Source: a virus
IMG/VR virus record: IMGVR_UViG_3300022879_000002
Span: 57,876-121,875 of that record
DNA length: 64,000 bases
Direction: 5' to 3' (one strand)
Under the pieces are notes generated by a model. The model did no database searches. It saw nothing but the letters and a program-made list of their open reading frames with translations, and had not been told where the DNA came from. The position numbers and the translations under genes are program-made. This document shows, piece after piece, positions 3,444-47,850 of the stretch (positions are counted from its first letter, which is position 1; every line of letters begins with the position of its first letter).

Positions 3444-3758
3444 CTAATTTAGTATTGCTTTATATGCATATAAATTGTATTTTCCACAATCTTGTTGTAA
3501 TACATCGTCTGATACAGGATGAATCTGTCTATACTCAATATGTTCAAAAAAGTCATCCTTCTTTAAGTCTAATCTCATAAATATGGATTTTAATGCAAGT
3601 TGTCTTGATTGTGTAGAATTAAAATAACTGGATGCTTTTATATCCTTTTCAATTTTCCTTAGTAAATTTTTAATATCTTGATGAGTAAACCCTAAGATTT
3701 CTGCATTCGGTGCTACTCTTGGATAATCATTATATAGTTTGCTCTCTGAATTTTTCAT
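3444..3758 (-). CDS. hypothetical protein
   Basis: 104-aa ORF with AGGGGA RBS. Confidence 0.6.
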   Translation of the reverse strand: MKNSESKLYNDYPRVAPNAEILGFTHQDIKNLLRKIEKDIKASSYFNSTQSRQLALKSIFMRLDLKKDDFFEHIEYRQIHPVSDDVLQQDCGKYNLYAYKAILN

Positions 3759-3794
3759 TACATATCCCCTATATCTTAAATTTTTTTATTGAAT

Positions 3795-4098
3795 TTACTT
3801 CAACAACTTTTCAATTTTTAAAATAATTGAGTCCAATTTTATTTTACTTTCTTTCAAATTATCCTTGATGATTCTTAACTCATCTTTTGAAAATAATTCG
3901 ATATTAGAAGACCTAATAAAAAAATCTACACTGACATTAAGTTTAGTTGATATTAGTAAAAGCATTTCAATTGAAGGAGTACTGTGTCCATTTTCATAAT
4001 TACTAATAGTTACTTTAGTTGTCATTACTAGATCAGCTAATTCTTCTTGTGTATACATTTTATTCTTACGAGCTGTTTTTAATCTTTTTTTGAAACAT
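3795..4098 (-). pseudogene. XRE-family HTH regulator with a +1 frameshift in an A7 run near the 5' end
   Basis: RBS AGGTGA then ATG at 4098; removing one base from the T7 run (4085-4091) gives MFQKRLKTARKNKMYTQEELADL..., restoring HTH helix 1; otherwise stops after 10 codons. Confidence 0.7.
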
Positions 4099-4432: not shown

Positions 4433-4687
4433 CTAAGATACTAGTTCTGTAAGAAGCTCATCGATGTCATCATGATGGTATGGAGCTACGTCTTTTAGCT
4501 TCACTAGGAAATTTTCCATTTTCGATGGATCAACACAAGTAAATTCAACTTCTTTTTCTTCTGTAACTACATTTAATTCTACTCTGTTTGGCTTTTGAAC
4601 TATATCAAACGCGAGTAAAAATTGAGCTTCATTTAATGTAGTGGAAATCACCTGTAGTGCTTCTTTTATTTGAACATTTGCTTTCAT
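4433..4687 (-). CDS. hypothetical protein
   Basis: 84-aa ORF with AGGAGG RBS. Confidence 0.7.
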   Translation of the reverse strand: MKANVQIKEALQVISTTLNEAQFLLAFDIVQKPNRVELNVVTEEKEVEFTCVDPSKMENFLVKLKDVAPYHHDDIDELLTELVS

Positions 4688-4738
4688 AATTATATTCCTC
4701 CTAAGTTTTATAAAATGCTGATATTACTTAATGTTCAT

Positions 4739-5293
4739 TTATTCCTCAAAATTATCCCAGTAAACACCATTAATATAAGTTCCAACGTTATAACCAAGGT
4801 AATCTTCGACTAGTCTTCCAAAAGAATGATTAACATTGAATAAGTCCATTATTGCCTTTTGTTTATCGTTCAGTTTAAGATTTATTGACATGGTGACACC
4901 TAGTTCTCCTATCGTTGCATCTTCTTCTTTCATTTCTGCTAAGACTTCTTCCTCACTTTTAAAATCATCAATGATATAGTAAATATCAATACTGTCAATC
5001 TTTAAGAAAGAGTTTTCAACTTCATTTCCAATTGTATCACCTACGATTTTCTCTAATAGTTCATATTGTGTTGTATTCTTTATTTGTATTTGTAAATGAG
5101 TTAGTAAGTATTTTAAGACGTAATTCATAATCGAATTGAAATCTTTTTCTACATGTCCTTCTTCTATCATAAATACGATTTCTTGCGTTATATCACTGTG
5201 GAATTCATTTAGTATGTATTTGTGCATTGGATGTGTAATATCTTCTAATACATTTTCCCAAATAACCATGTTTTCTTCATAAGTTTTCATCAT
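4739..5293 (-). CDS. hypothetical acidic protein (start reassigned to MMKTYEE)
   Basis: RBS AGAAGGAA upstream of ATGATG at 5293/5290; the longer call overlaps the next gene. Confidence 0.65.
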   Translation of the reverse strand: MMKTYEENMVIWENVLEDITHPMHKYILNEFHSDITQEIVFMIEEGHVEKDFNSIMNYVLKYLLTHLQIQIKNTTQYELLEKIVGDTIGNEVENSFLKIDSIDIYYIIDDFKSEEEVLAEMKEEDATIGELGVTMSINLKLNDKQKAIMDLFNVNHSFGRLVEDYLGYNVGTYINGVYWDNFEE

Positions 5294-5310
5294 ATATTCC
5301 TTCTTTCTTT

Positions 5311-5616
5311 TTATATTCCATAATCTCCAGATTCTACAATAGTTTGTTCGCCATGCCATTCTTTTAAAAATTCTTGATATGCTATAAAGTTTTTGATATC
5401 AAATTCAAAATTTTCAATATCTGGATATAACTTTCGTATTTCTATTATTTCATTCCAAATTAAATCAGTTAATTTAGATACTAATCTATGCTTAATCTTA
5501 ATAGAAAACATATCTTTTAATAATTTCAAGGATACCCTATCTAGATAAAGAAAAGAATCTAGTGATCGTTCGATATAATATTTGTTAGTTGAAGCTGTCA
5601 CATCCATCTTAATCAC
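5311..5616 (-). CDS. hypothetical protein
   Basis: 101-aa ORF with RBS AAGGGTG. Confidence 0.6.
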   Translation of the reverse strand: MIKMDVTASTNKYYIERSLDSFLYLDRVSLKLLKDMFSIKIKHRLVSKLTDLIWNEIIEIRKLYPDIENFEFDIKNFIAYQEFLKEWHGEQTIVESGDYGI

Positions 5617-5727
5617 CCTTTATCTATTATTTTAATTTTACTTGATGCTCAAATGGTATACAACTTCCAACTACAAATATTAATTTGTACTTATAATTAG
5701 TTGCTGCCTCCATTTAATCTTAACCTG

Positions 5728-5773
5728 ATATTACCATACACTCAAAATTAAAGTCAAACACATTTATGTATTT
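5728..5773 (-). promoter_or_regulatory. sigmaA-like promoter with upstream AAATACATA box
   Basis: minus strand: AAATACATA (5773-5765), 7 nt, TTGACT (5757-5752), 18 nt, TGnTAATAT. Confidence 0.6.
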
Positions 5774-6049
5774 TTATATTTAATTTTAAAGTAGTTAAAG
5801 TAAATCAAAAATTCTATACGATTGAAATTTCAAAATCATACAATTAATAAATCAAGATTTTGTCTATCTCTATATTCGCATTAAAAATTCTACATATTCT
5901 AATTTTCTAAATGTAAAATTCTACGATTTTGATTTTTTAATTCTACAGTTTTGATTTTTCAAATACTGCTATCTTGCATGTCTAACTAAGAATTGGTTCA
6001 CATCGATCAAACAGCTATTGTAATTTAATAAAGAATATTATTTATATAT

Positions 6050-6376
6050 TTAGTTAGCTAACAACTTCATATATCCCTTTTGCAGCTCTTTCATTTGATC
6101 CTTATAGTAATCAACTTCTTCTTTTGTATAGCTTGGCGTAAATAACGCAGGAACATCAACTTCTATATCTGAGTTATTTACTGAGATTTCATAACGAGCA
6201 AAATCATATTTATCCACTAATTCGAACCTATATTCATTATTTATATTGTTAATGCATTCTTCTCTAACTTCTTCACTCATTTGTAACAGTGAATTGTACA
6301 CTTCATATTTATTGTAACTAACTCCATTATTACAATCCGCAGCATTATTAACAACTAATTTTAATTGATTCATCAT
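6050..6376 (-). CDS. hypothetical protein (start MMNQLK)
   Basis: AAGGGGA RBS upstream of internal ATGATG. Confidence 0.6.
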   Translation of the reverse strand: MMNQLKLVVNNAADCNNGVSYNKYEVYNSLLQMSEEVREECINNINNEYRFELVDKYDFARYEISVNNSDIEVDVPALFTPSYTKEEVDYYKDQMKELQKGYMKLLAN

Positions 6377-6946
6377 TTTTATATCCCCTTTATTTTTTAA
6401 GTATTTATTCATATAAATTATATCACAACAACTTAACTTGTTTCTTTGTAAGATTAGCTCATTTCAATATCAATATTCCAATTTTCAATAAATAATTACA
6501 TTATTATGTATTTTATATTTTAGTTAACATAAGAATAATCGAGTTAAAATAGCGTTAACCATACTCTAAGTAGATGATTGGAACTTTGATTAAAATGTAT
6601 CTTACTTGTAAGCTATAAGTAAATTATACATAAGATACTAGTAAGATACAATAGTTTTTTAAATTTATTTTTGTATATTTTGGAAGTATTAATTATTCTT
6701 GTCTACTCCCTTCTTATTTATTCACATGTATTTTAAATAGTTCAATTTTACTTTTGATACTTCCCCTCTAAATTAGTTACAAAAGGATTTAGGGTGATCT
6801 TGCAATGTGATCTCTTGAGAAGTTTAAAAAGACCAATCATTTTTAGCAGCTAACTAATTCGAATAAATTGCTTTTAATAGGAAGAAACTAAATTTCATAA
6901 GAAAATAATCATTGTGGAATTAGATAGCCTTATATTTTATTTATAT

Positions 6947-6991
6947 AAATACATAAATAGTGTTGACTAAGATATTTTTAAGTGATAAGAT
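6947..6991 (+). promoter_or_regulatory. sigmaA-like promoter with upstream AAATACATA box
   Basis: AAATACATA 6947-6955, 7 nt, TTGACT 6963-6968, 17 nt, TGnTAAGAT 6986-6991. Confidence 0.7.
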
Positions 6992-7043
6992 AAACTCAAG
7001 TTAAACAAATAAATACATAGACAAACTTTAGGAGGAATTAAAA

Positions 7044-7501
7044 ATGAAACTACAAAATAAAATCAGCGCTCTATCTAATATGACAGCTAAGGAGTTACAA
7101 GTAGAAACAAACAAAGAAGGTTTAGCATGGTACAACCGTGAGAAAAACGTAAAATGCGTAAAGGCGAGATTCTTACAATGTTAACTGAGTACTATACAAT
7201 CTTATTTGGACAGGAACAAAACTTAGAATTAGAAATCGAAAATTCGACAACTGCTCAATTGGTCAAGTATTTTAAAGAACTAGCTTCCAATGCAGTAACT
7301 ACAGCTAAAGAAGATTACGATCAAGCAACGCAACAATTAAGTACTGTTAAAGAACTACTATCACACGCATTTGTAAAGCTGCATGACAAGCTTACTGATA
7401 AGAAAAACAAGCTACTAGCTCGAAATTGGGCTTTAACAATAAATAACATTAAAGGTATTGTGACTACCGCAGAACGTAAAATTAACGCTGTAACTGCCTA
7501 A
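7044..7501 (+). pseudogene. hypothetical coiled-coil protein split by a -1 frameshift
   Basis: GGAGG RBS at 7031 with ATG at 7044 gives a 46-aa ORF; adding one A in the run at 7151-7154 joins it to the RBS-less 7154-7501 ORF (...REKNVK|MRKGEIL...). Confidence 0.65.
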
Positions 7502-31784: not shown

Positions 31785-32780
31785 ATGGCAGAAAATAAAT
31801 TTTTAACATCGGTTGCGGATGTTAAATTATACGATGACAAGACTGGTGATTTAATTTTAAATGGTAAAACATTAATTAACTCATCTATGACTCAAGCAAT
31901 TCAATCTCAAGCTATTTATGCAGGTAAAGGATCAAAGAAACTTTTTGAATACAACTACCAAAAAGAACTCTCATTCTCGATTGAGGATGCTACCTTCAAT
32001 ACGAGTTATATTTGCTTACAAAATAACACAAAGGTCTTAAGAGAGCTTTCTGATTACTACACAAACGAGTATGTGACTCTAGATGGTTCTGGTAAAGGTA
32101 CCCTCTCTCAAAAGCCAGTAGGAAACATCCATATAGAAAATGAAAATGGTACTTTTACTCAAATTATTTCTAATGGTAAAGAATTTACATATCCTACTTT
32201 GTCAGGTCAAGAGGTTCAAGTTTCATATGCATACAAAGAAATGATGGATAACATTACACTTTCTGCGGATTCATTCCCTAGGGCTGTTCGTATGGTTTTA
32301 AATGGCGATATTATGACTAACAATGGTAAAGAAGAAGAAATGCAAATTGTAGTTCCTAAATTTAAACCAGATGGAGCAATGGAATTATCAATGACTCATG
32401 ATGGAGTTTCTTCATCTTCTTTAGCAGGTACATCTTTGGCAGACAATAAAGGTAATTATGCTTACATTTCATTCAAGGCAGTTAATGATGAAGATGTACC
32501 TGTAATTAAAATTGCAGCATCCCCTTCTGAAATCGATTTAGATTCTACGGTAAGTGGAGATACGGAACAGATTACGGTTTATGGTATTCGTGGAGGCACT
32601 TATGGAGTAGTTTTGTTAGATAATAAAACACTTACTTTTACTTCTGATGAACCTACTATTGCTACTGTAGATGCTAGTGGTTTAGTTGCATTGGGAGCTT
32701 CTGCTAATGCAGGTGATACTACTGTTATTCGTATCACCGATGGTAAAGCAAAAGACATTGTAGAAGTTACAATTCTATAA
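31785..32780 (+). CDS. major tail tube protein with C-terminal Ig-like domain
   Basis: C-terminal TFTSDEPTIATVDASGLV Big_2-like motif; strong RBS; terminator follows. Confidence 0.8.
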   Translation: MAENKFLTSVADVKLYDDKTGDLILNGKTLINSSMTQAIQSQAIYAGKGSKKLFEYNYQKELSFSIEDATFNTSYICLQNNTKVLRELSDYYTNEYVTLDGSGKGTLSQKPVGNIHIENENGTFTQIISNGKEFTYPTLSGQEVQVSYAYKEMMDNITLSADSFPRAVRMVLNGDIMTNNGKEEEMQIVVPKFKPDGAMELSMTHDGVSSSSLAGTSLADNKGNYAYISFKAVNDEDVPVIKIAASPSEIDLDSTVSGDTEQITVYGIRGGTYGVVLLDNKTLTFTSDEPTIATVDASGLVALGASANAGDTTVIRITDGKAKDIVEVTIL

Positions 32781-32801
32781 AAACAATAAATATATATATA
32801 C

Positions 32802-32830
32802 GAGTAGGGATTATTCCCTACTCCATTTTT
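32802..32830 (+). terminator. intrinsic terminator
   Basis: GAGTAGGGA-ttat-TCCCTACTC followed by a T tract. Confidence 0.8.
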
Positions 32831-32846
32831 ATATTGGAGAAAAGAT

Positions 32847-33347
32847 ATGGTTCAGTTCAATAATATAGATCAAATACAAAGGTACTTTGAACGCAATTCT
32901 CATCTGGTTTTCAAAGATAGAAACATTGAAAAAGTGTTAGCTTCCACAATGTCTCAAGCTGTATATGATGTTGTTTATAGAAGATATGTACCTGTTGAAT
33001 ATAAACGTAGACGTAATGATGGTGGTTTATCTGACGTTCGTAACATGAAGATTACAAAGGTTGAAGTGAAGAATGGAAAAGTTATTGTGTTATTCGAAAA
33101 CTTAACATTAGGTCAAGGTCACTTCTCCCCTATTTATGAGCAAAGTCAAGACTCCATGTATGGGCAATTCATCACAGATGTAATTAATGATGGAGAAACT
33201 GATGGTAACAGTTGGTATAGGCATGGTAAGTGGTCAAATGCTAGACCGTTTATACAAGAAACCATAGCTAGAATTGAAGCTAATCCTACATATTTAGTAA
33301 ATGCAATAAAGAGTGCATATAGAAAATTAGGATTTGAAGTGAGATAA
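32847..33347 (+). CDS. tail-completion-like protein (HK97 gp10-like)
   Basis: C-terminal ARPFIQET motif; synteny. Confidence 0.5.
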   Translation: MVQFNNIDQIQRYFERNSHLVFKDRNIEKVLASTMSQAVYDVVYRRYVPVEYKRRRNDGGLSDVRNMKITKVEVKNGKVIVLFENLTLGQGHFSPIYEQSQDSMYGQFITDVINDGETDGNSWYRHGKWSNARPFIQETIARIEANPTYLVNAIKSAYRKLGFEVR

Positions 33348-33388
33348 CTTCAAGTCTTTTTTCATTCTTTTGAAAGGAGAATGATGAA

Positions 33389-34427
33389 TTGATTGAAAAA
33401 GAATTAGATATTAATAAACATATGTTACGTGAAAGAGCAAAGAAACTACCTGATGTAACCGATGAAATGTGGAAAAATGTAAATAAAGAGTATAGGAATT
33501 TAATTGACGAGTATATTTCTTCTCAATCACACTCCCCTCAAACTAAAAAGCAATACAGATCGATGTTACGTCAATTTGGTTGGTTTATTTATGAGTCGCT
33601 TAACAATAAGCCTATCTATAAAATTAAAAAACGTGACATAATTCGTTATTTATCTTACCTTCGAGATGATAGAAAAATGTCTCCTTCAGCTATTGGAACA
33701 CGTAAAGCAGTTATTTCAAGTTTGTGCAATTATATTGAAAATGTTGTAATGGATGATTTTGATGAAGAAGAGTTCAATCCATATAAAAACTTCAGAAACT
33801 TTACTCGTGGACTACCTGCTATTCCTAAAAGCTCTGTTTATGAAAAGGTTAAAGTAACAAAAGACGAGTATCTTGAGATGATGAAAGTATTAGAAGATGA
33901 TGAGAATTATTTAGGTATGGCATGGTTAGCTGTTGCATTTAATGTTGGAGCTAGACGTAACGAAATTATCCAGTTTAAATCAGAAATTGTAGATTACAAA
34001 ATTAATGAAGAAGCTACATACATTATGAGTCATAACGTTCGGTTAAAAGGTCGTGGAGAAGATGGTAAAATTGAACCTTACATGATTAATTATGAAGCTT
34101 TAAAATACATAAAGTTATGGCTTGAAAAACGTGGCTATGAGCATGAATACATCTTCACAAAAAAAATATGGTAATGAAATTAAAGTTGTTGAAGAAGGAT
34201 GGGCTAATTACTTTTGTTCAAGTGTACTTTCTCATGTTCTTGAGAGACGCATTAACCCCCACTTATTCAAGGCAAGTGCAGTTACATACTTATTAGAACA
34301 AGGTGTACCTTTAGAATTAGTAAGTAAGTTCGTTGCTCATCATGAGAATGTAGCCACAACAATTGCTCATTATGACCTTAGAGATCATGCTGAAGAAAAG
34401 AATAATATCTTCGGTAACATGTCGTAA
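33389..34427 (+). pseudogene. tyrosine recombinase (YomM-like) split by a +1 frameshift in an A8 run
   Basis: SAM-like N-terminal domain, GARRNE (Arg), HLFKAS, HHENV..T..HY (His/Tyr); removing one A from 34159-34166 fuses the two ORFs (...YIFTKKYGNEIKVV...). Confidence 0.85.
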
Positions 34428-34502
34428 ATAATTGAAATACTCCCCTACTTTAATTTAGGGGACTACTTGAGTTATTTAATCAAATAAGAATTTTATTTAA
34501 AT

Positions 34503-34548
34503 AAATACATAACAAATACTTGAATCAGTAGTCTCTTCGTGTTAGTAT
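34503..34548 (+). promoter_or_regulatory. sigmaA-like promoter with upstream AAATACATA box
   Basis: AAATACATA 34503-34511, 8 nt, TTGAAT 34520-34525, 17 nt, TGnTAGTAT 34543-34548; second box at 34594. Confidence 0.6.
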
Positions 34549-34625
34549 TTAGACATAGAGATAAATCAGTTGTGGTTTTATCTTTAAATAAATAAATACA
34601 TAAAATCACATTAAGGAGAGATTTA

Positions 34626-35663
34626 ATGAACAGCATTGAAAAATTTACAGAAGGTAGCAAAACATTATTTTTATTTCAGCTTGACGGTAAGGTAGCTACA
34701 ATTGCTCCAGAGTTGATGGCATTTGAAGGATATGCAAGCCCTAAGAAATCATGGAATGACATTAAAGAACGAGAAGACTTTGAAGAAGGTTATGAATACA
34801 AGACCTTACAAGGTAATGATCTAAAAGTATTCAAAGAAATTTTAAAAGGAAGTGACGACCTGTCCTTAGTCGTAACTGAAATGGTGACGACCTTATATGA
34901 ACAGTATAAATCAGTTCCACGTCTAGATATTGTATTTGAAGAAGGTATTTTCGGTACTATGTACTCTTCTAACTCAGGACATGCTAATAAATTTAAAAAG
35001 TTTATGCGTAGAGAAGTTAATCCTAAATTAAATTCTGAAGGTAAGTTTGATCTTGTAGAAAACGAAATATCTAAAATTGAAGATGAAAAAGAAAAGCAGT
35101 TACGATTAAGGATCTCAAAATGTCAAAGTCTTTTTGATTTAGCTCCTGATGACAATTTTACTGTTATTCAGTTGAACAATTTAAAGAATGAGCTACAACA
35201 ATATCTACACTCTAAACAGATTGAAGAAGTTCAAAACAAAGTTGACGCTCTAGAATTTAAGGTGAACCGATCAGTGGTTGTTCGAGAAGGAGATAAGACT
35301 GCTGAAGCTGTAGCAAGACATTTCAGTATCTTCTCATCAACCAATAAACCACATGGTAACTTCGCAGAGCATATGGCTAAAAAGTTAGGGTTTTACATTT
35401 CTCCAGATGGTAACATTGGTTATCAAGATGAGTATGTTACAGTAAATATAATACAACGTGGTGGAACTGAAGTTCCTACTATAAAATTCAGTAAGGAAGC
35501 TGTAAAACTGATGAATGACTGTATCGAAAATGAAGGCTTGGAATTTACAGATGTTGATTATGTTAAACGTGGTATGGATAAAGGTAAATTCAAACGAGCT
35601 AAGATTGAATTTGATACAGGAAACATTTGGGTAAATGAAACAACTTATAATTTGTATAATTAA
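34626..35663 (+). CDS. Bro-N-like antirepressor/DNA-binding protein
   Basis: EEGIFGTMYSSNSGHANKFKKFMRREVNPKL resembles the Bro-N C-terminal signature. Confidence 0.6.
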   Translation: MNSIEKFTEGSKTLFLFQLDGKVATIAPELMAFEGYASPKKSWNDIKEREDFEEGYEYKTLQGNDLKVFKEILKGSDDLSLVVTEMVTTLYEQYKSVPRLDIVFEEGIFGTMYSSNSGHANKFKKFMRREVNPKLNSEGKFDLVENEISKIEDEKEKQLRLRISKCQSLFDLAPDDNFTVIQLNNLKNELQQYLHSKQIEEVQNKVDALEFKVNRSVVVREGDKTAEAVARHFSIFSSTNKPHGNFAEHMAKKLGFYISPDGNIGYQDEYVTVNIIQRGGTEVPTIKFSKEAVKLMNDCIENEGLEFTDVDYVKRGMDKGKFKRAKIEFDTGNIWVNETTYNLYN

Positions 35664-38656: not shown

Positions 38657-40726
38657 ATGTGTGAAAATACATATGCAAGACCTAAGTTTGATTTATCAAT
38701 GATATTAGAAAATAATGCTATGTTAAAAGTTAGACCAGAGCTATTTGACGAATGGGATTTTAGAAAGAATAATGAACTAGGTTTAAATATTTATAAAGCG
38801 ACTAAAGGTAGTCATAAAGTGGTATGGTGGATTTGCTCAAAATGTAGTAGTAGTTTTAATTCTCAAATAACCGATAGGACAAGAGGAAATAATTGTCCGT
38901 TTTGTGCAAGTCAAAGAGTTAATCACACTAATTCTTTAGCAACATTAAGACCTGATTTAGCCAATGAATGGCATCCTCTTAAGAACGGTGAATTAACCCC
39001 CAATGACGTACTGTGCGGTAGTGGAAAGAAAGTTTGGTGGAAATGCCAATTAGGTCATGAATGGGAAGCCGTTGTAAATAACAGAATAAAAGGTCAAGGA
39101 TGCCCATATTGTTCAGGACGCAGAGTAATTAAAGGTTATAGTGACTTATATACAACTAATCCTGAAATGGAATATTACTGGAATAAAGAAAAAAATACAG
39201 AAATAAAAATGTCAGATGTTACCAAGGGTAGTCATATAGAAGCTTGGTGGAAATGTGATAAATGTAAAAGTGATTTTAAAACAGAAATAATCCTGATGGT
39301 AAAGTACTTTAACTGTCCATACTGTTCAGGAAAAAGAGTTAATTCTACTAATTCACTAGCATCTCTCAACCCTTCTCTGGCATCTGAATGGCATCCTACG
39401 AAGAATGATGATTTAACTCCACATAATGTTACATGTAATAATGGCAATAAAGTTTGGTGGTTAGGTGAATGTGGGCATGAGTGGGATGCAAAGATCACTA
39501 GTAGACATAACGGAATAGGTTGTCCATATTGTAGTCGTAATCCGAAAGCTCTAAATGGTTACAATGACATGTGGACTACAAATCCAGAACTAGCTTCTCT
39601 GCTTGCTAATCCTGAAGATGGTTACAAATATACTCAATCTAGTGGTAAGAAAGTTAATTGGAAGTGCTCTGACTGTGGAACTACTATTAAAAGTAAATCT
39701 ATTGATTCAATAAAAAAACAAGGTTTGTCGTGTTTTAGATGTTCAGATGGAAGATCATTTGGAGAACGTTATATGTATAGTTTACTAACAGAAATTGGAG
39801 TAGACTTTGAATGTGAAAAAGTATTCAAATGGAATAAAAACCGTAGATATGATTTTATAATAAAGTATGATGGTCAATTGATTATATCTGAAATTCATGG
39901 GTTACAACACTATGAAACATGTTATTTTCATGAAGTATCTGGAATGACGTTAGAAGAACAAATTAAAATAGATGAAGAAAAGAAATATAAAGCACTTTCT
40001 AATGGTATAGATTATTATTTTGAAATAGATGCTAAAGTATCAAATGATGAGTATTTAAAATCCTCCATAATTAATAGTGGTATATTTAACAAGTTGAAAA
40101 TAGAAGATAGAAATATTAATTGGCTTAAAGTTTCTGAAGGCACTAGTTTAAGTTTTATAAAAAGGACAAGTGATTTATGGAATAAAGGAATGAGCATTAA
40201 AAATATATCAGAAAAATTAAAATTAAACAGGAATACCATATCCGAATATTTGATAAAAGGAAATAAATTAGGTTTATGTTCTTATCAAAAAAAACCTCTA
40301 AAAGCTAAAATAGTTCAATTAAATAAAGAGAATGTTTATATAAAAGAATGGGATTCTATAATTGAAGCTAGTAAAGTATTGAATATAACTAGTTCAATGA
40401 TAAGTTCTTGTTGCAACAATAGACAAAAAACTGCTGGAGGATATAAATGGTTATTTAGTGAAGTCTATGAAGATTATTTATCTGGTAATATGGCTTCCAA
40501 AACATTAAGTAACAATCATGGATGTTCTGTAGAAGTGGTAAGAATAGATGCTACAACCGATAAAATTGAAATTTACGAATCAATTAAGTTAGCAGCCAAA
40601 TATAATGATTTAAAAAGCTCTGCACATATTTCATCTTGTTGTAGAGGAAAACGAAAATCTGCTTACGGTTATCGCTGGATGTACCTCGAAGATTATGAAA
40701 AACAGTACGGTAAAATAGATGAATAG
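38657..40726 (+). CDS. free-standing endonuclease-like protein: repeated Zn-ribbons, nuclease domain and NUMOD1-like repeats
   Basis: repeated W.C..GHEW.......G.GCPYC units; RYDF...SEIHGLQHY nuclease-like core; two E..SI..A......I..CC..K.K.A.GY.W NUMOD1-like repeats. Confidence 0.8.
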   Translation: MCENTYARPKFDLSMILENNAMLKVRPELFDEWDFRKNNELGLNIYKATKGSHKVVWWICSKCSSSFNSQITDRTRGNNCPFCASQRVNHTNSLATLRPDLANEWHPLKNGELTPNDVLCGSGKKVWWKCQLGHEWEAVVNNRIKGQGCPYCSGRRVIKGYSDLYTTNPEMEYYWNKEKNTEIKMSDVTKGSHIEAWWKCDKCKSDFKTEIILMVKYFNCPYCSGKRVNSTNSLASLNPSLASEWHPTKNDDLTPHNVTCNNGNKVWWLGECGHEWDAKITSRHNGIGCPYCSRNPKALNGYNDMWTTNPELASLLANPEDGYKYTQSSGKKVNWKCSDCGTTIKSKSIDSIKKQGLSCFRCSDGRSFGERYMYSLLTEIGVDFECEKVFKWNKNRRYDFIIKYDGQLIISEIHGLQHYETCYFHEVSGMTLEEQIKIDEEKKYKALSNGIDYYFEIDAKVSNDEYLKSSIINSGIFNKLKIEDRNINWLKVSEGTSLSFIKRTSDLWNKGMSIKNISEKLKLNRNTISEYLIKGNKLGLCSYQKKPLKAKIVQLNKENVYIKEWDSIIEASKVLNITSSMISSCCNNRQKTAGGYKWLFSEVYEDYLSGNMASKTLSNNHGCSVEVVRIDATTDKIEIYESIKLAAKYNDLKSSAHISSCCRGKRKSAYGYRWMYLEDYEKQYGKIDE

Positions 40727-40991: not shown

Positions 40992-43900
40992 TTGGCTACT
41001 AAAAATCCTATTACTTTACTAATGTCACTAGACATAAACGGTTCTACTTCTCAACAAAATGTTAATCAATATGTAAAATCATTAAAAAAATATTATGATA
41101 GAAATCCACTACTTATTACCCTTGGAATAAATAAAGGTAATATAGAAAAAGATTTAAATGAGATTTCTAAAGTAATTAGTAAAAAGCAAAATGAATTAAA
41201 AGTAAATATTGGCTCAAGTAATGCTGTCAAAGATATGAAAGAATTAGAGAGTCAAATTAATAAGGTAATAGCAAAATTAACTGAGTTAGATAGAAAGATG
41301 AGATCAATCGGTTCAAGTTCTAATGGTTCAATCAATCTTGGAAATATATCTTCATCCTCTATAGCTAATTCCATAGCGCAATTACAAGCATTAAATAGTA
41401 ATTCTGCAAACAATTTAAATGGATTACAAAGATCAGTAAATGATACTTCACGAGGATTAACTAGTTTAAGTAACAATATTAACCAGACTTCTAGGTCAAC
41501 AAATGAACTAGGTAATGCTTTTTCTGAAGCATTCACAAAATTCCCTATTTGGCTAATCGCATCTTCATCCGTATTTTTACCATTACAAGGTATAAAAGAT
41601 TTAACTGAACGAGTAATTGAGCTTGATACAGCTATGACTAACTTAAAACGGGTCATGGATCTTCCTGACTATAAGTTTAATGAAATGTTAGAAAAATCAA
41701 TTGAAAATACTGAACTTTTGTCTGGAAAAGTTGAAGATTACTTAAAGTTAGTTGGTGAATTCGGTAGAACTGGTAGGAATGATAAGGAATCACTTGAGTT
41801 GGCTAATGTTTCTACTATCTTACAAAACATATCAGAATTAACTGCAGATGAAGCTGTAAATAGCTTAACTGCTGCTATGATTTCGTTTGGAATTGCTGCT
41901 GAAGACAGTTTAACTATTGCTGATAAATTAAACGAAGTAGATAACAATTATTCTATTACTACTCGTGATTTGAGTTTATCCATGAATAAAGCAGCGAGTA
42001 CTGCACGAACTTTTGGAGTAAGTCTTGATGAATTATTAGGTTACACCACTGCTAAAATATGGCATTCATAATAGCGATATTATGTCTAAACTTCCCTAAA
42101 CAGGGAAACCCCTAACGCATTAAGACGAGGGCAATCCTGTACTAAAGCGTATAACGTAAATGTGCAACGACTAGTAAGTCCTATAAAAATAGGCATACAT
42201 TCAAGTGAATGGAAACGGGAAGGCTCTCAGTGAGAGCTTGATATAGTCTGATCTTATAGGAAACTATAAGCTGTATGAGAAATTGTCGAGAGATAATCAA
42301 ATACGACATAGATGTAACGAACCTATGTGAACATAATGATTGGTGCAGCTACAAGAGAATCTGGAAACATTGTTGGTTGACATACTAGCCCCTTATAACA
42401 GTGATGTTATATTGAACACCGAATATCGGGGGAACTCCTAACAAGTTAAGTTGAGGACAATCACCGAAGCGTAAAACATAAGTACTACGCTCGAACGACT
42501 GACAAGGTGCAACTCTACGAGTTGATGATACAGTCTACTCCCCTACTTAAATATCGGGAAACCGAGGGTATAAAGGAACAGTTTAAAAACTATTTTCTCA
42601 CGAATTACTACTAACAGTTCTGCCATTGGAGCTTTAGAAGACATCAATATTTCTATTGAAGATATGGAAGGAAACGTTAAGCCAGTATCTTCTATAATCA
42701 GTGAAATAGCAAACAAATGGGATCATCTCACAGACGCAGAGAGACAAAACACTGCAGTAAAAGTCGCAGGAGTTTATCAACTTTCCAGATTTAATGCATT
42801 AATGCTCAATTATAAGATGGCTCAAGATGCTACTGCAACTTCTACCAATTCTTTCAACTCAGCTATGCGTGAACAAGAGGAATATGGTAAAAGCTTACAG
42901 GCTAGAATTAATCGTTTAGATACTGCTTGGACTGATTTTGCAAACACTGCAGGTGATAAAGTTCTCTATGATGGCATTGTAGTTGTAACAGAAGCACTTA
43001 AAGGTGCGACTGACGCTTCAAATGGAATTGCTAGCAATATAGGAGTCCTAGCTCCTGTATTTGGAATACTAGGAATGGCAGCTTATGGATTAAGTAATAA
43101 CTTGCGAATATTAGTTGCTTCTACTTACGCTCAAAGTGCTGCTTCAATTTCGGCTTCAGGTACAACTGGAATATTTGCAGGTGCTTTAACAGGATTAAGA
43201 ACTGTAGCCTCTTTGACTACTGTAGCTCTAAGAGGATTGTTAATCGCTTCTGGAATAGGAATTGCCTTTGCAGGTGTAGGGTTCATAATAGAAAAATTAA
43301 CTAATGTCATGTCTGAAAATATTCAGAAACAAGAAGAGTTAGATAATTATAATAAAAAAAATATAGAAGCCATTACTCTCAATAAGAACTCAGTAGAAAG
43401 TTTAATCTCTACATATAAAGAACTAAGTGACCAAAAAGAAAGTGGTTCTCAGTGGGACGCTGATAATGAAGAAGAATATTTAAAAATTCAACAGCAACTT
43501 AGCGAAGTATTCCCTGCACTAATTGGTCATATCGATTCAACTGGTCAAGCACACATAAAAAATACTGATGCTATAGATAAAGAAATTGAATCAACAAATA
43601 AATTAATTGATGCACAAAACAAAGTAACTGTTAACAAAGCTATTGAAGAATTTAAGAAGTTAAATAATGAATTAAATGGATCTTGGTATGAATCTTTTTC
43701 AAATTACATTTTCGGTAGCTTAGAGTCTAGAATAAAGCAACAAAAGCAAATAATTGAATCAATGCAGAAAAACGGCTCTGATACTTCTGCTCAAGAATTA
43801 GAATTATTGCAATTTGAACAGCAATACCAACAAACAAGTGAAAAAATAAAAGGCTATATTTTCGAAGTAACTAGAGCAATGGCAGAAATGAATGGCGTTG

Positions 43901-46900
43901 AAATTAACTCAGCACTTATAAACTCTCTGCAGAATTTCGTTTATAATTTGGATTTAACTAATCTTGATGAAGGAAAATTAAAAACATTTTCATATGAGCT
44001 TGGAAAGCTTCAAGAGAAAATGCAAAAGGCTATTGATACTAATAATGAGAAAATGTTCAATGAAGCAGTTGAAAGTCTCAACAAACTTGCTTCTCAAACA
44101 ACTGGATTTGACTCTAAGTTAGGTAAATTTAATGATACTTTTGCAAAACTAACAGGTACTATCAAAGACGGTAGTGGGATAATAAATGTAGCAACAGACG
44201 AATTTTCTGAACTTGGTGACGGTATAGATAGTGTAGGAGTAGCAATAGATGATGCTGCAGATGCACTTGATAAACAAGTTGAAAAGTTAAAAGATCTCTC
44301 ATCAGCTCAAGAACAAATTGTAGGCGTATCTGAAGCTCAAATCAAAGCAGTTACTGATTCAGTTACTGTTATTGAGTTTTTAGGTAATGTATCTGAACGT
44401 ACTGAACAACAAGAATTATCATTAGCAAATTCAATTAAATTATTATCTGCTCTATATCCTCAATTAACAAACCTGTTAAAAGGTACATCCAAACAACGTG
44501 AGCAAGCGATTGCGATTATTGAGTCTGAAAATAAAGCCAACAAGGCATTACTTAAAGGTTACGAACTATCTGCTAATGGCAAGATGAACGCTGAAGGTAA
44601 AGCTACAATCGTTCATCTTGAAGAAACAAATAAACGTATCAAAAATATCAATGCTGAAATCAGAGCTTTAGACACTCTTCAAGCAAACTACAATAATATT
44701 ATCAATGCAATGAGCAAAAGTAAGAGTGCAACTAATGATATTGATCTATTACGACAAGAAAAATTATCTTCACAAGCATACGATAAAATTACACTTAAAC
44801 AAGCTGAACTTGCTACCCTATCAGGAACTCAATCAACATATTCTGATTCTCTATTAAATACAGTTAGTGCGATTGAAGAATACGACAAATCATCTAAAAG
44901 CTCAAATAAATCTCAAAAAGATAAAAATACTACAACTAAAGATTCAATATACATAACAGATAAGTATAAACAAGCCCTTGAAGCTTTAAATCTTGAAATT
45001 GAGAAACAACAAAAATTACAAGCCAAATACCCTGAACATTCCAATGAATATCGCAAACATCTAGAAGTGCAGATTAAACTTGAAAAAGAAAAATTAGCAC
45101 TGCAAGAAAAGCAAGCTAAAGCTATCCAATCTCAAATTGCATCAGGTAAAATTCAGCAAACTGGTAATGTTTCAAGTAAGTCTTCTACTGCTACTGCTTC
45201 TACTACAAATGCTAATGTCAATGGTTTTAATGGAAGAATCTCTAGTAACTATGGTCAACGTGGTGCAGAATTCCATCGTGGTGTGGATATTGCCTCCCCT
45301 CTTGGTAGTCGTCTGGATGCTCCAGTGTCAGGTAAGGTAATTAAAGCAGGTGATGCAAAGGCTAATGGTATGTCTTGGACTTATGGAAACTTAGTTGTTG
45401 TACAGGATGATTCAGGCGTTAAACATATCATGGCTCATATGGATAAAGTGGTTGCCAAAATTGGAGATTATGTTCAAGCAGGTACGCAAATTGGTACAGT
45501 AGGTAGTACTGGAAACTCAACAGGTCCCCATGTACACTATGAACAAAATACAGCTAATGGTAAATTAATTGATCCAACGTCATATGTAAATCAAGTTCGT
45601 TCTGGTAAAGTTTCTGTCTCTCCTTCTTCTGGAGTTTCTACTGTTGATAATGGTCAACAAGCAATTGATCAAGCTAAATCTGATTTATTAGGTTTACAGA
45701 AAGATGTACTCAACACTAAAGATACAATTGATAATTTGAATGAACTACTAGTTAAATCTAATGTCGCTTACTACAATCATCTAATTGATGGTGTAGATCG
45801 TTCTATTAAGAAATCTAATATTCTAGCTAATCAACAATTAGAGCATTCTCAAGCTTATCGTGATGAATTAGAAAAAGAAACTAAACACTTAGAATACAAG
45901 CAATCTTTATTACATAAAGAAGCAAACTTCATTCGTGAGCAACTTAAACGTACTGACCTCTCCCCTGCTTTCAAAGATGAATTAACAACTCAATTAAGCG
46001 AACTATCTCTTTCTTGGTGGGATGTTGAAGAAAGTATCAAAAGTGTAAATGAACAAATTGAAAATAGTAAAATAGCCGAATTTGACAAGAAAATTGAAAG
46101 TCTAAATGATGCAATCTCTAAATCCAATAAATTAATGGATATACATGCTAAAGGCTCTAAGGAATATAATAACGAGCAGAAAAATATTGTCTCTACATTA
46201 TATGAAAAACAAAAAGCATACGAAACAGAAGCTGATGCGTTACGTAAGTCAATTCAACTGGAAAAACTATCAATTAAAGAAATTGAACGTAAGAAGGAAC
46301 GACTTAAAGAATTATCTTCTACTTGGTTAGAACTTCAATCAGAAATTATACGTATCAATTCTGATATTGCAGATGAGTTAATCAGCACAATGAAAGATGC
46401 TTATGGTCAACAACGTGATTACGAATTAGCTTTAAAAGATAAGCAAATTGAAGACTTAGAAGAATTACGTGATGCTAAATTAAATGCTCTTGAAGAAGAA
46501 GGTAAAGCTTACGAAGAATCCATAAAACAACAAATGGATGCGCTCGATAAGGCTCATAAAGACAAGTTGTCTAAGTTAGATGAAGAATCTAAGGCTTTTG
46601 AAGATGCCATTAATCGCCAACTCGAATTAATGAGAAAGCAACGAGATGAAGAGGATTTCAATAAGGATATAGGAAAACTTCAAAAAGAAGAAGCTACTAT
46701 TGTTGCTAAAATCAATGAATTGTCTATGGATGATTCTAGAGAAGCTAAGTTACAACGTAAAAAGCTTGAAGAAGAATTAGCAAATGTTCGTGAACAGATT
46801 GCTGATAAACAAAACGATAGACAGTATGAATTACGTGAACAAAATCTTCAAGATGAACTAGATGCTTATAAATCACAACAGGACGCAAAGAAAGAAACGG

Positions 46901-47850
46901 AAGATAATAATTACAATACGTCCAAAGAAGCTTTAGATAATCAGTTGGAGTTATACAAAAAGGAATTAGAAGCTAAGAAAAAGTTAGAAGAAGAAAAGTT
47001 TAAAGCATCTAAGGCTCAATTAGAGAGAGAACGTAAAGATATAGTCAATCACTACGATCAATTAATTAATAATGAACAAGAATATGCTAATTTACGTGCA
47101 CAGATTATTAATGGTAGCGTTGATGGAATGAATGAAAAACTTTCTACCTTCTTAGGTAATTTCAAAAACATGAATAAAGAGTTAATTAATGAATTAGGTA
47201 TTAGTTGGCAAGAGTTAGAGAATAAGATTTATAGAATTACACAAGCACAAGGAAGTCTAGGTAATATCTCTACTCCGAATCAAAATGTAGACTTGAATAA
47301 TGGTTCTATTATTGGCTCTGGTTCTAATTCTAACAATTCATCTTCTAACACTTCTGCGAGAGATAACGCATGGCAACAATACTTATCTAATAAAAAAGCA
47401 TGGGATTCCGCATCGGCAGCAGAAAAAGCACGTTTAAATAAAGAAAATGAAAAGTTACGCAATCAATGGGGATTCCAAGATGGTTCATATGCTTCACTAA
47501 AGAACCTCAAGAAGTACCATAGTGGTGGTATTGTTGGTGGTAAAGGTAATCGATTGACGGAGCTAACTAACAAATTATTCAATACTAAACCTAATGAAGA
47601 AACTGTACTTGCCCTTAAACGTGAATTATATGTCCCAGAGAATAATGTAGATAATATGTTTACAAATATTCGTGCTGCCATGCCTAATTTCAAAGTAAAC
47701 AGTCCTCAAGGTGGATCGATAAAAATTGATAGTTTACTTTCTATAGATAGCGTTTCTCAGAATGCTAATTTAGACATAGCTAGATTGACTGATCAAGTTA
47801 TGGATACATTAATTGATAAAATGAGACCTTATGGATTTAATATACGATAA
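40992..47850 (+). CDS. tape measure protein with M23 peptidase domain; three exons 40992-42053, 42339-42377 and 42577-47850 (~2124 aa spliced)
   Basis: splicing restores the conserved TMP motif GYTTA-IGAATRESGNIVG-NSLKTIFSRI in frame; M23 motifs HRGVDI...H...HVHYE near 45.3-45.5 kb. Confidence 0.9.
42054..42338 (+). mobile_element. group I intron 1 (285 nt, no ORF)
   Basis: 5' exon ends in U (GCU) with P1 UGCU/GGCA; intron ends in G; P3 CTTCCC/GGGAAG, P4 ACAGGGAAAC / GGCAATCCTGT, P7 GACTA(42169)/TAGTC(42244) within GTGCAACGACTA and GATATAGTC. Confidence 0.9.
42378..42576 (+). mobile_element. group I intron 2 (199 nt, no ORF)
   Basis: exon ends GGU with P1 GGU/GCC; terminal G at 42576; P4 TCGGGG/CACCGA, P7 GACTG(42497)/CAGTC(42531), P8 CAACTC/GAGTTG, P9 TCGG-GAAA-CCGA. 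Confidence 0.88.

What the first reader, a model, noticed from the sequence alone, without database searches (positions are those of the whole stretch)
42054..42576. Tape-measure gene split by two tandem ORF-less group I introns around a 39-nt micro-exon
Seen: the TMP frame stops at 42071, but removing 42054-42338 and 42378-42576 gives an in-frame GYTTA|IGAATRESGNIVG|NSLKTIFSRI, a conserved motif of SPbeta-like tape measures. Both inserts follow the group I rules (exon ends in U, intron ends in G, P1 U-G pair, P3/P4/P7 cores). They are minimal (285 and 199 nt) and differ in sequence, suggesting independent invasions 39 nt apart. Known: phage group I introns are mostly in nucleotide-metabolism and replication genes, with some in late or structural genes such as those of staphylococcal phage Twort. 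Inference: tail assembly needs two splicing events, and skipping the micro-exon would keep the frame (13 codons), so splice isoforms are possible. Standard annotation would call this gene broken.
Basis: partly seen in the sequence, partly recalled or inferred. Interest (0 to 1): 0.85.

Follow-up and report, generated by a model that had tools for sequence, protein, structure and literature searches.

The report
Two group I introns split tape-measure gene
The tail tape-measure gene of this 122-kb soil phage is cut into three pieces by two small self-splicing (group I) RNA introns only 39 bases apart; this is real and neatly documented, but it is a new example of something already known from Bacillus prophages rather than a new kind of element.

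Summary
Removing 42054-42338 (285 nt) and 42378-42576 (199 nt) joins three open frames into a 2,124-aa tape-measure protein. Its junction, LLGYTTA|IGAATRESGNIVG|NSLKTIFSRI, aligns without gaps to 78 uninterrupted homologues.

Intron 1 scores 69 bits on Rfam RF00028 and its helices covary. Intron 2 gets no Rfam hit. It nevertheless has a complete P1-P9 fold, with a U·G pair at the splice site, a P7 pseudoknot and a terminal G. That fold is supported by covariation in 11 relatives: 95% of cells pair, and 12 pairs carry double changes.

In three soil metatranscriptome runs, but not in the DNA run, contigs join the last G of intron 2 (42576) to its second base (42379). This is the circle that group I ribozymes make after splicing. 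Ligated exons were not seen, so exon ligation remains inferred.

Relatives carry intron 1 only, a site-2 intron only, both, or three introns with 22- and 17-nt micro-exons, so the motif is an intron hotspot. Group I introns in prophage tape-measure genes were described in 2008 (PMC2504315). I rate this a new member of a known kind. The splice-isoform idea has no support.

The parts
40992..42053 (+). Tape-measure gene exon 1 (354 codons, ends ...LLGYTTA; last base U42053)
   Evidence: ORF and translation. PF10145 profile positions 14-121. Gapless alignment to intron-less homologues.
42054..42338 (+). Intron 1: 285-nt ORF-less group I intron. P1 is UGCU 42050-42053 with GGCA 42061-42064, giving the U42053·G42061 pair. 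P7 is GACUA 42169-42173 with UAGUC 42244-42248. P7.1/P7.2-like hairpins lie between P7 and P3'. Two extra 3' hairpins (P9.1/P9.2) follow. The terminal G is 42338.
   Evidence: Rfam RF00028 69 bits, E 2.8e-17, full model. RNAalifold on five site-1 introns: 74 pairs, 15 with compensatory changes, U·G in 5/5. Present at the same codon boundary in L002, L003, L004 and L055.
42339..42377 (+). Micro-exon, 39 nt, encoding IGAATRESGNIVG
   Evidence: Translation. Identical peptide, continuous with both neighbours, in intron-less homologues. Fills PF10145 profile positions 122-135.
42378..42576 (+). Intron 2: 199-nt ORF-less group I intron of a compact lineage that Rfam does not detect. P1 is GGU|UG 42375-42379 with CUAGCC, giving the U42377·G42388 pair. 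The fold also has P2, P3 (CACC/GGUG), P4, P5 and P6. P7 is GACUG 42497-42501 with CAGUC 42531-42535. P8 and a P9 with a GAAA loop follow. The terminal G is 42576. There is no P7.1/P7.2.
   Evidence: Covariation on 11 relatives: 95% of cells paired, 12 pairs with double changes against 5.7±1.6 in shuffles (0/500), slid controls 33-40%. The MFE fold recovers P1, P2, P5, P6, P7, P8 and P9. Circle junction 42576->42379 in RNA runs X3, X4 and X6 but not in DNA run X1. 92% identity of nt 53-197 to introns of Twortvirinae terminase genes. No RF00028 hit at E<=10.
42577..47850 (+). Tape-measure gene exon 3 (1,757 codons plus stop), starting NSLKTIFSRI, with an M23 peptidase domain
   Evidence: Translation. 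PF10145 profile positions 136-201 and PF01551. Homologues.
38657..40726 (+). Free-standing 689-aa endonuclease-like gene just upstream of the tape-measure gene. It may supply homing in trans. Its link to the introns is inferred, not shown.
   Evidence: Pfam: four DUF4379 treble-clef zinc fingers, an I-HmuI NUMOD-like domain and an HTH. tblastn finds 29-41% identity (piece E-values 1e-35 to 1e-61) to ORFs lying inside the P8 insertion of intron-2-type introns at the same tape-measure site in L055, L012 and L063.

Best explanation
The tape-measure gene of this complete 121.9-kb phage genome (direct terminal repeats; relatives are Lysinibacillus prophages) is interrupted by two unrelated ORF-less group I introns. 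They sit at adjacent homing sites inside the most conserved motif of the PhageMin_Tail domain.

Each intron folds on its own. Intron 1 binds ...UGCU through its guide sequence, with the pair U42053·G42061. Intron 2 binds ...GGU, with the pair U42377·G42388. In the standard pathway an external guanosine cuts after the U, and the freed exon end then attacks after the terminal G (42338 or 42576). Two such splicing events give an mRNA for a 2,124-aa tape measure.

After excision, the terminal G of intron 2 attacks the bond after its own first base, U42378. This releases a dinucleotide (added G plus U) and leaves a 198-nt circle.

Shown here: the exact in-frame boundaries, the folds with covariation, presence/absence polymorphism among relatives, and accumulation and circularisation of intron RNA in soil metatranscriptomes. 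Inferred: exon ligation in vivo, self-sufficiency without protein helpers, and spread by homing. The homing may be helped by the DUF4379/NUMOD endonuclease gene just upstream.
For: - **Boundaries and restored protein:**
- **Intron 1:** RF00028 69 bits against a 50-bit cut-off; 15 compensatory pairs in P2, P3, P4, P5, P9 and P9.2.
- **Intron 2 fold:** all of P1-P9, with 12 doubly changed pairs and slid controls collapsing to 33-40% pairing. The splice-site U·G is kept in 10/10 relatives at six different host sites, all ending GGT.
- **RNA evidence:** a 60-nt contig in X3 joins 42547-42576 to 42379-42408. A 181-nt contig in X6, depth 81.6, joins 42426-42576 to 42379-42408. An X4 contig runs from 42576 into GACATACTAGCC. 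X3 holds a contig of exactly 198 nt (42379-42576). DNA run X1 has linear pieces only. In X6 the intron contigs have depth about 80 and the exon contigs 2-5.
- **Circularisation precedent:** closure after a U close to the 5' end is the established behaviour of the 205-nt Azoarcus intron (PMC13168695).
- **Polymorphism:** L002 has both introns. L003 and L004 have intron 1 only. L005 and L012 have a site-2 intron without intron 1. L055 has three introns.
- **Conservation:** the introns are 99% identical between the window and L002, while the exons are 83-90% identical.
Against: - No contig with ligated exons was found in any RNA run. Unspliced linear contigs across all four boundaries exist. They could be precursor RNA or DNA carried in the libraries.
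- Intron 2 has no RF00028 hit even at E<=10.
- P4 of intron 2 has a conserved G·A mismatch, and P3, P6 and P7 never vary, so covariation says nothing about them.
- The contig depths are per-contig means. The three RNA runs may come from one sampling campaign.
- The identity peak over the introns partly coincides with the most conserved protein segment.
Confidence: 0.9

Rival explanations
1. The gene is a pseudogene. One or both inserts are decayed intron remnants that no longer splice, so the phage makes no full-length tape measure and is defective.
For: No ligated-exon contig was seen. Intron 2 is invisible to Rfam. A tyrosine recombinase elsewhere in the window is split at an A8 run, so some decay or sequencing error exists in this genome.
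Against: All 2,124 codons stay open across three exons. The genome is complete with terminal repeats. Both introns are 99% conserved between two phages whose exons differ by 10-17%. Both folds are kept by compensatory changes. Intron 2 carries out a ribozyme reaction in nature, seen as a circle junction exactly at its terminal G.
Confidence: 0.04
2. The introns are genuine but do not self-splice. Efficient splicing in vivo needs a protein helper, either a phage or host RNA chaperone or maturase, or the upstream endonuclease-like protein acting as a maturase.
For: Intron 2 is very small (199 nt), has a short 5-bp P1 and few peripheral elements. Unspliced contigs are readily seen in RNA runs. 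Many compact group I introns depend on proteins (general knowledge, for example the yeast bI3 intron, PMC2813881).
Against: Circles form in situ. Phage group I introns of this broad type, such as those of T4, SPO1 and Twort, self-splice in vitro (general knowledge). Neither point excludes a helper.
Confidence: 0.15
3. Alternative splicing: exon 1 is sometimes joined directly to exon 3, skipping the 39-nt exon. This gives a second tape-measure isoform lacking 13 residues.
For: Skipping keeps the frame (39 = 13 x 3). [quoted passage not shown]
Against: No such joint appears in four runs. The two introns are unrelated in sequence, unlike the three similar Twort introns. The skipped peptide IGAATRESGNIVG is the most conserved stretch of the motif and is present in all 78 uninterrupted homologues.
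Confidence: 0.05

Closest known systems
Group I introns TMP-IVS1/2/3 in tape-measure genes of Bacillus cereus-group prophages (Tourasse & Kolstø 2008, PMC2504315). That paper also lists a TMP intron in Lactobacillus phage JCL1032.
   Same: ORF-less or HEG-bearing subgroup IA introns sit in conserved parts of siphophage or prophage tape-measure genes. There are up to two per gene. Different introns occupy one site, related introns occupy neighbouring sites, and the guide sequences are adapted to each site.
   Different: The host clade differs (Lysinibacillus-type, SPbeta-like 122-kb phage). Here the two introns are only 39 nt apart. One belongs to a 191-222-nt lineage without P7.1/P7.2 that Rfam misses. 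I could not test whether sites 1 and 2 equal IVS1 and IVS2, because the figures are not held.
Multi-intron genes of Herelleviridae: Twort orf142 with three introns, and terminase genes of Twortvirinae
   Same: Several self-splicing group I introns lie in tandem in one late gene with short exons between them. In Staphylococcus virus vB_SurM-PSU6 the terminase gene is annotated as pieces of 240, 147 and 186 nt separated by roughly 230-290-nt gaps. Intron 2 shares its P4-P5 and P7'-P9 modules (92% identity) with the first of these gaps.
   Different: Those exons are 147 nt or longer, against 39 nt here and 22 and 17 nt in L055. The Twortvirinae intron has P7.1/P7.2-type insertions and lacks the P2 of intron 2.
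Azoarcus pre-tRNA-Ile group I intron (205 nt), the standard minimal self-splicing and circularising model (PMC13168695)
   Same: It is a compact intron of about 200 nt. After splicing, the terminal G attacks a bond just after a U within the first few bases and forms a slightly shortened circle.
   Different: It belongs to subgroup IC3 and lies in a tRNA anticodon loop. Circle closure is after U2 or U4, not U1. Intron 2 lies in a protein-coding phage gene and its activity is known only from metatranscriptome contigs.
Collaborative or trans homing by free-standing endonucleases (for example T4 mobE with the defunct I-TevIII intron, PMC2790892)
   Same: ORF-less introns lie next to a free-standing homing-endonuclease-like gene.
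   Different: The cleavage specificity of the 689-aa protein is unknown. Only its homology to intron-borne ORFs of the intron-2 family is shown. L004 keeps such a gene but lacks intron 2.

Membership tests
Group I intron (intron 1, 42054-42338) | Match to the curated covariance model RF00028 above its gathering score | tested here: met
   69 bits against a 50-bit cut-off, E 2.8e-17, model positions 1-253. The whole-genome search gave the same result. The whole-window run with gathering filters missed it.
Group I intron (intron 1, 42054-42338) | 5' exon ends in U paired to G in P1; intron ends in G | tested here: met
   U42053·G42061 is kept in 5/5 site-1 introns. G42338 is read from the sequence.
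Group I intron (intron 1, 42054-42338) | Conserved P3-P9 core supported by compensatory changes | tested here: met
   15 of 74 predicted pairs have double changes, in P2, P3, P4, P5, P9 and P9.2. The P7 pseudoknot GACUA/UAGUC is read from the sequence and never varies.
Group I intron (intron 2, 42378-42576) | Match to the curated covariance model RF00028 | tested here: not met
   No hit at E<=10 in an 851-nt or a 226-nt search. A relative 90% identical over nt 9-164 scores 23.5 bits, E 0.004 (L041). A different intron at the same site scores 36 bits (L005).
Group I intron (intron 2, 42378-42576) | 5' exon ends in U paired to G in P1; intron ends in G | tested here: met
   The U·G pair at alignment columns 8-19 is kept in 10/10 rows. 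All host exons end GGT and the guide sequence AGCC is conserved. Every full-length family member ends in G.
Group I intron (intron 2, 42378-42576) | P3-P8 core with P3/P7 pseudoknot, supported by covariation | tested here: met
   48 pairs, 95% of cells paired, 12 pairs with double changes (0/500 shuffles reach this), slid controls 33-40%. The double changes lie in P2, P5, P8 and P9. P3, P6 and P7 are invariant, so for them only presence is shown.
Group I intron (both introns) | Ribozyme chemistry: guanosine-initiated excision, reactions by the terminal G | tested here: inconclusive
   For intron 2 an RNA-only circle junction G42576->G42379 appears in three runs, as expected from attack by the terminal G after U1. 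No circle was seen for intron 1. GTP dependence cannot be tested with these tools.
Group I intron (both introns) | Ligated exons exist as RNA | tested here: inconclusive
   No contig joins 42053 to 42339 or 42377 to 42577 in X3, X4 or X6. Exon cover is thin (depth 2-12), and contigs drop rare forms.
Group I intron (both introns) | Precise removal restores a conserved host gene; intron-less alleles exist | tested here: met
   Gapless junction alignment, 78 uninterrupted homologues, and relatives with one, the other, both or three introns.
Mobile intron with homing endonuclease | Endonuclease ORF inside the intron | tested here: not met
   No ORF of 40 aa or more lies on the sense strand in either intron. 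Relatives of intron 2 carry a DUF4379-type ORF in P8 (L012, L055). A homologue lies free-standing at 38657-40726.

The most novel reading that the evidence does not exclude
The GYTTA-IGxATRESGxIVG-NSLKT motif of tape-measure proteins is a stacking hotspot for group I introns of several lineages. At least four insertion points lie within about 190 nt. Up to three introns fall inside 39 coding bases in L055, leaving micro-exons of 22 and 17 nt.

One of the lineages, the intron-2 type, is 191-222 nt long and is not detected by Rfam. It uses a fixed GGU-binding guide sequence to hop between GGT sites in tape-measure and lytic-transglycosylase motifs. Its DUF4379/NUMOD endonuclease either sits in P8 or has moved out to a free-standing gene beside the target gene.

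Such dense stacking would force an order of splicing, because neighbouring ribozymes share micro-exons barely longer than their P1 and P10 pairings.
Probability: 0.55. Interest if true: 0.6.

Novelty: new member of a known kind. Interest (0 to 1): 0.5.

Why it matters
- **Annotation.** Gene callers split this tape measure into a 359-aa and a 1,728-aa protein. They do the same in at least 20 of 113 homologues. Tail-length and host-range predictions built on such calls are therefore wrong. A rule that joins PF10145 halves across 190-300-nt gaps would repair many phage annotations.
- **RNA biology.** The intron-2 lineage is a natural ribozyme of about 190-200 nt, slightly smaller than the Azoarcus model, with evidence of activity in the environment. 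RF00028 does not see it, so it is a useful seed for a better model.
- **Intron ecology.** The hotspot offers a natural system to study how neighbouring ribozymes cope with micro-exons of 17-39 nt. The endonuclease found both inside introns and free-standing beside the target gene bears on how endonuclease genes move in and out of introns.

None of this changes the known picture of group I introns.

Tried and rejected
- **Rfam, whole window, gathering mode:** no hit at all. This was a filter artefact, since the same model scores 69 bits on a short stretch.
- **Rfam on intron 2 alone:** only a chance DUF3800-II match at E 1.6.
- **The search for related loci with a single exon-3 piece:** nothing in viral or genome collections. 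P0042 was not on record.
- **17-mer scans:** most of the loci found by the 17-mer scans of the three collections were bare 17-mer matches with no further homology.
- **Other copies in the same genome:** BLAST gave only weak hits. The hit at window 34438-34460 is a terminator-like hairpin after a split recombinase gene, not an intron. Rfam on 31800-34900 found nothing.
- **RNA runs, ligated exons:** no spliced-exon contig and no exon-skipped contig. Absence in contigs is not evidence of absence.
- **RNA runs, intron 1 circle:** none seen.
- **Other readings rejected:** inteins, because both inserts contain stops in frame. Translational bypass, because the inserts are far too long and are folded ribozymes. 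Assembly artefact, because the same arrangement occurs in an independent assembly, L002, and in several runs.
- **Literature:** Landthaler & Shub 1999 (PMC22036) is not held, so I could not read the Twort exon sizes. A search for a 'smallest group I intron' claim found nothing usable, so I make no size-record claim.
Full report
**Setting**

The window is the right-hand 64 kb of a 121,875-bp IMG/VR virus record with direct terminal repeats, estimated complete. The nearest relatives of its tape-measure protein (TMP) are SPbeta-like prophages of Lysinibacillus. DNA runs that hold it are soil metagenomes.

**The observation**

- The ORF 40992-42071 (359 aa) carries the first half of Pfam PF10145 (PhageMin_Tail, profile positions 14-121). 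It stops 18 nt after position 42053.
- The segment 42339-42377 reads IGAATRESGNIVG.
- The frame from 42577 to 47850 is open. It begins NSLKTIFSRI, carries PF10145 profile positions 136-201 and has an M23 peptidase domain. The 14 missing profile positions correspond to the 13-codon piece.
- Joining the three pieces in a script gives a 2,124-aa protein with one terminal stop.
- A 133-residue stretch centred on the junctions aligns without a gap to dozens of homologues. It is 100% identical over LLGYTTAIGAATRESGNIVGNSLKTIFSRITTN in P0006, P0007 and P0009.
- Of 113 homologues with a hit, 78 run through both sites uninterrupted.

The boundaries are therefore exact to the base. The group I rules (U before the 5' cut, G before the 3' cut) remove the one-base ambiguity at site 1.

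**Intron 1 (42054-42338, 285 nt)**

- Rfam RF00028 matches 42043-42270 over the full model at 69 bits (cut-off 50), E 2.8e-17 (the same).
- The whole-window run with gathering filters missed it. This is a caveat for any scan that relies on that mode.
- The alignment puts the splice-site U42053 opposite G42061 in P1.
- Between P7 (GACUA 42169-42173 with UAGUC 42244-42248) and P3' lie two hairpins of the P7.1/P7.2 kind typical of subgroup IA. Two further hairpins follow P9.
- RNAalifold on five introns at this site (window, L002, L003, L004, L055) predicts 74 pairs. Fifteen have compensatory double changes, in P2, P3, P4, P5, P9 and P9.2. The U·G pair is kept in all five.

**Intron 2 (42378-42576, 199 nt)**

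RF00028 gives no hit even at E<=10 on 851-nt or 226-nt stretches. By hand the sequence folds as follows:

| Helix | Pairing |
|---|---|
| P1 | GGU\|UG with CUAGCC (U42377·G42388) |
| P2 | UAUAAC / GUUAUA |
| P3 | CACC / GGUG |
| P4 | UCGGGG / CACCGA, with one G·A mismatch |
| P5 | UCCU / AGGA plus an extension |
| P6 | AGCGU / ACGCU |
| P7 | GACUG 42497-42501 / CAGUC 42531-42535 |
| P8 | CAACUC / GAGUUG |
| P9 | CCC...UCGG-GAAA-CCGA-GGG |

The terminal G is 42576. The free-energy fold recovers P1, P2, P5, P6, P7, P8 and P9.

Its nt 53-197 are 92% identical to a gap in the terminase gene of Twortvirinae phages. Shorter parts match Listeria, Enterococcus and SPO1-like Bacillus phages.

Scanning three collections for a 17-mer spanning J6/7-P7-P3' brought in relatives at six host sites:

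- TMP site 2: L012, L053, L063, L055.
- Two points in a lytic-transglycosylase motif: KGLMQV|IDPTF in L010 and L011, and KG|LMQ in L046.
- ...AETFG| in a distant TMP: L021 and L041.
- AGV(E/D)TG|TWNID in two Lysinibacillus genomes: L079 and L087.

Every host exon ends in GGT and every intron keeps the guide sequence AGCC. Full-length ORF-less members are 191-222 nt long and all end in G.

On an 11-row alignment, my structure has 95% of cells paired and 12 pairs with changes on both sides. Shuffles give 5.7±1.6 and none of 500 reaches 12. Sliding the 3' partners by 1-3 columns drops pairing to 33-40%. The double changes lie in P2, P5, P8 and P9. P3, P6 and P7 never vary, so covariation is silent on them.

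A relative 90% identical over nt 9-164 (L041) scores 23.5 bits on RF00028, E 0.004. A different intron at the same TMP site (L005) scores 36 bits. The miss is a sensitivity limit of the model and does not count against the intron.

**RNA evidence (one call allowed, Logan contigs)**

- Soil metatranscriptome run X3 holds a contig of exactly 198 nt covering 42379-42576. It also holds a 60-nt contig whose halves lie on 42547-42576 and 42379-42408.
- Run X6 has a 181-nt contig, depth 81.6, that runs 42426-42576 and continues at 42379-42408.
- In run X4 a contig runs to 42576 and continues GACA-TACTAGCC, which is 42379-42390. The tool laid the first four letters on 42577-42580 with one mismatch.
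- The DNA run X1 shows only linear pieces.

The junction G42576->G42379 cannot be shifted, because the neighbouring bases differ. It is what attack of the terminal G on the bond after the first intron base would give, releasing the added G plus U42378. The added-G-plus-U end mimics the GU end of the 5' exon on the guide sequence. That last point is my inference.

Circle closure after a U within the first few bases is established for the 205-nt Azoarcus intron (PMC13168695). An RT jump from the 5' end of a full-length linear intron would have kept the U, so it does not explain the junction.

In X6 the intron contigs have depth about 80 and the exon contigs 2-5. In the DNA run the depth is flat at about 7. 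These are per-contig means, and the three RNA runs may belong to one campaign.

No contig shows ligated exons. Unspliced contigs cross all four boundaries. Exon ligation therefore remains inferred.

One detail is unexplained. The abundant intron-1 contigs begin at 42083 in X6, just after P2, and at 42071 in X4, not at 42054.

**Independent insertion and a hotspot**

| Locus | Origin | Introns in the TMP motif |
|---|---|---|
| L002 | 95% relative | Both introns, 285 and 198 nt |
| L003 | Logan assembly of a public sequencing run | Intron 1 only |
| L004 | Lysinibacillus sp. FSL K6-0057 | Intron 1 only |
| L005 | metagenome | A different intron at site 2, plus one at NEVD\|NNY, 150 nt upstream |
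| L012 | viral (IMG/VR) contig | An intron-2-type intron at site 2, with an ORF in P8 |
| L055 | metagenome | Three introns (see below) |

L055 has the following layout:

- The exon ...LGYTTA ends at 4517.
- Intron A spans 4518-4805 (63 bits).
- A 22-nt exon follows.
- Intron B spans 4828-5124 (56.8 bits).
- A 17-nt exon follows.
- An intron-2-type intron with an ORF of about 1.2 kb spans 5142-6685.
- The exon NSLKT... follows.

Among called homologues, seven start one residue before exon 3 and two start one residue before the micro-exon. Several others start inside the motif.

Between the window and L002 the introns are 99% identical and the exons 83-90% identical. The identity peak is centred on the introns. 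This fits recent homing with co-conversion, but the flanks are also the most conserved protein segment.

**Endonuclease**

Neither intron has an ORF. Directly upstream of the TMP gene lies a 689-aa gene with four DUF4379 zinc fingers, an I-HmuI NUMOD-like domain and an HTH. It is 29-41% identical, with piece E-values of 1e-35 to 1e-61, to the ORFs inside the P8 insertion of intron-2-type introns in L055, L012 and L063. It is also similar to free-standing genes upstream of the TMP gene in L002 and L021.

The homology adds support. The cleavage target is untested, and L004 keeps such a gene without intron 2.

**Comparison with what is known**

- Group I introns in prophage TMP genes were described for the Bacillus cereus group. 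They occupy three sites, with up to two per gene, and belong to subgroups IA1 and IA2. That paper shows both one site holding different introns and related introns holding neighbouring sites. It also lists a TMP intron in Lactobacillus phage JCL1032 (PMC2504315).
- Several tandem introns in one late gene are known from Twort, including exon skipping (cited in PMC3073962). They are also visible in a Twortvirinae terminase gene.

The kind is therefore known. New here are the 39-nt spacing (17 and 22 nt in L055), a compact lineage that Rfam does not detect, the environmental circle evidence, and the endonuclease that occurs both inside and outside the intron.

**Verdict**

Confidence that both inserts are genuine group I introns whose removal restores the gene is 0.9. 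Novelty: new member of a known kind. Interest: 0.5.

Noticed in passing
L055:4518-6685: A metagenomic tape-measure homologue carries three tandem group I introns inside the same 39 coding bases, leaving micro-exons of 22 nt (4806-4827) and 17 nt (5125-5141). Introns A and B score 63 and 56.8 bits on RF00028. The third is an intron-2-type core with an endonuclease ORF of about 1.2 kb in P8.
   Followed up: partly
window 38657-40726: A free-standing 689-aa gene (four DUF4379 zinc fingers, an I-HmuI NUMOD-like domain and an HTH) lies just upstream of the tape-measure gene. It is homologous to ORFs embedded in intron-2-type introns of other phages. It may be a homing endonuclease that left the intron.
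   Followed up: partly
L021 (reverse strand, oriented 5400-7300) and L041: A distant tape-measure-like gene has an intron-2-type intron, an intron-1-like intron about 300 nt later (39.8 bits, cut by the contig end), and two more gaps of about 300 nt between tblastn exon pieces. It may hold four or five introns in one gene.
   Followed up: no
L079:6934-7124 and L087 (oriented 3745-3952): Two Lysinibacillus genomes carry intron-2-type introns of 191 and 208 nt in another conserved motif, AGV(E/D)TG|TWNID. The 191-nt copy is the shortest full-length member seen.
   Followed up: partly
L010:5926-6119, L011:510-649, L046 (oriented 958-1152): The same intron lineage interrupts the catalytic motif region of a lytic transglycosylase (SLT) domain at two points 9 nt apart (KG|LMQV and KGLMQV|IDPTF), always after GGT.
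   Followed up: partly
window 42054-42408, RNA runs X4 and X6: The abundant intron-1 RNA contigs start 17-29 nt inside the intron (42071 and 42083, the latter just after P2) and continue through the micro-exon into intron 2. This may be 5' trimming of the excised intron. It is unexplained.
   Followed up: no
window 33389-34427: A tyrosine-recombinase gene is split into two overlapping ORFs at a run of eight A's (about 34161-34168). The N-terminal SAM-like domain lies in one ORF and the catalytic domain in the other.
   Followed up: partly
L006:1257-2700 (Staphylococcus virus vB_SurM-PSU6): The terminase large-subunit gene is annotated as separate CDS pieces of 240, 147 and 186 nt, with intron-like gaps of about 230-290 nt between them. 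RF00028 at E<=1 found none of these gaps.
   Followed up: no
window 1-64000 (method): The Rfam run on the whole window with gathering thresholds returned nothing, although intron 1 scores 19 bits above the cut-off when 851 nt are searched. Speed filters can hide clear group I introns in long inputs.
   Followed up: yes
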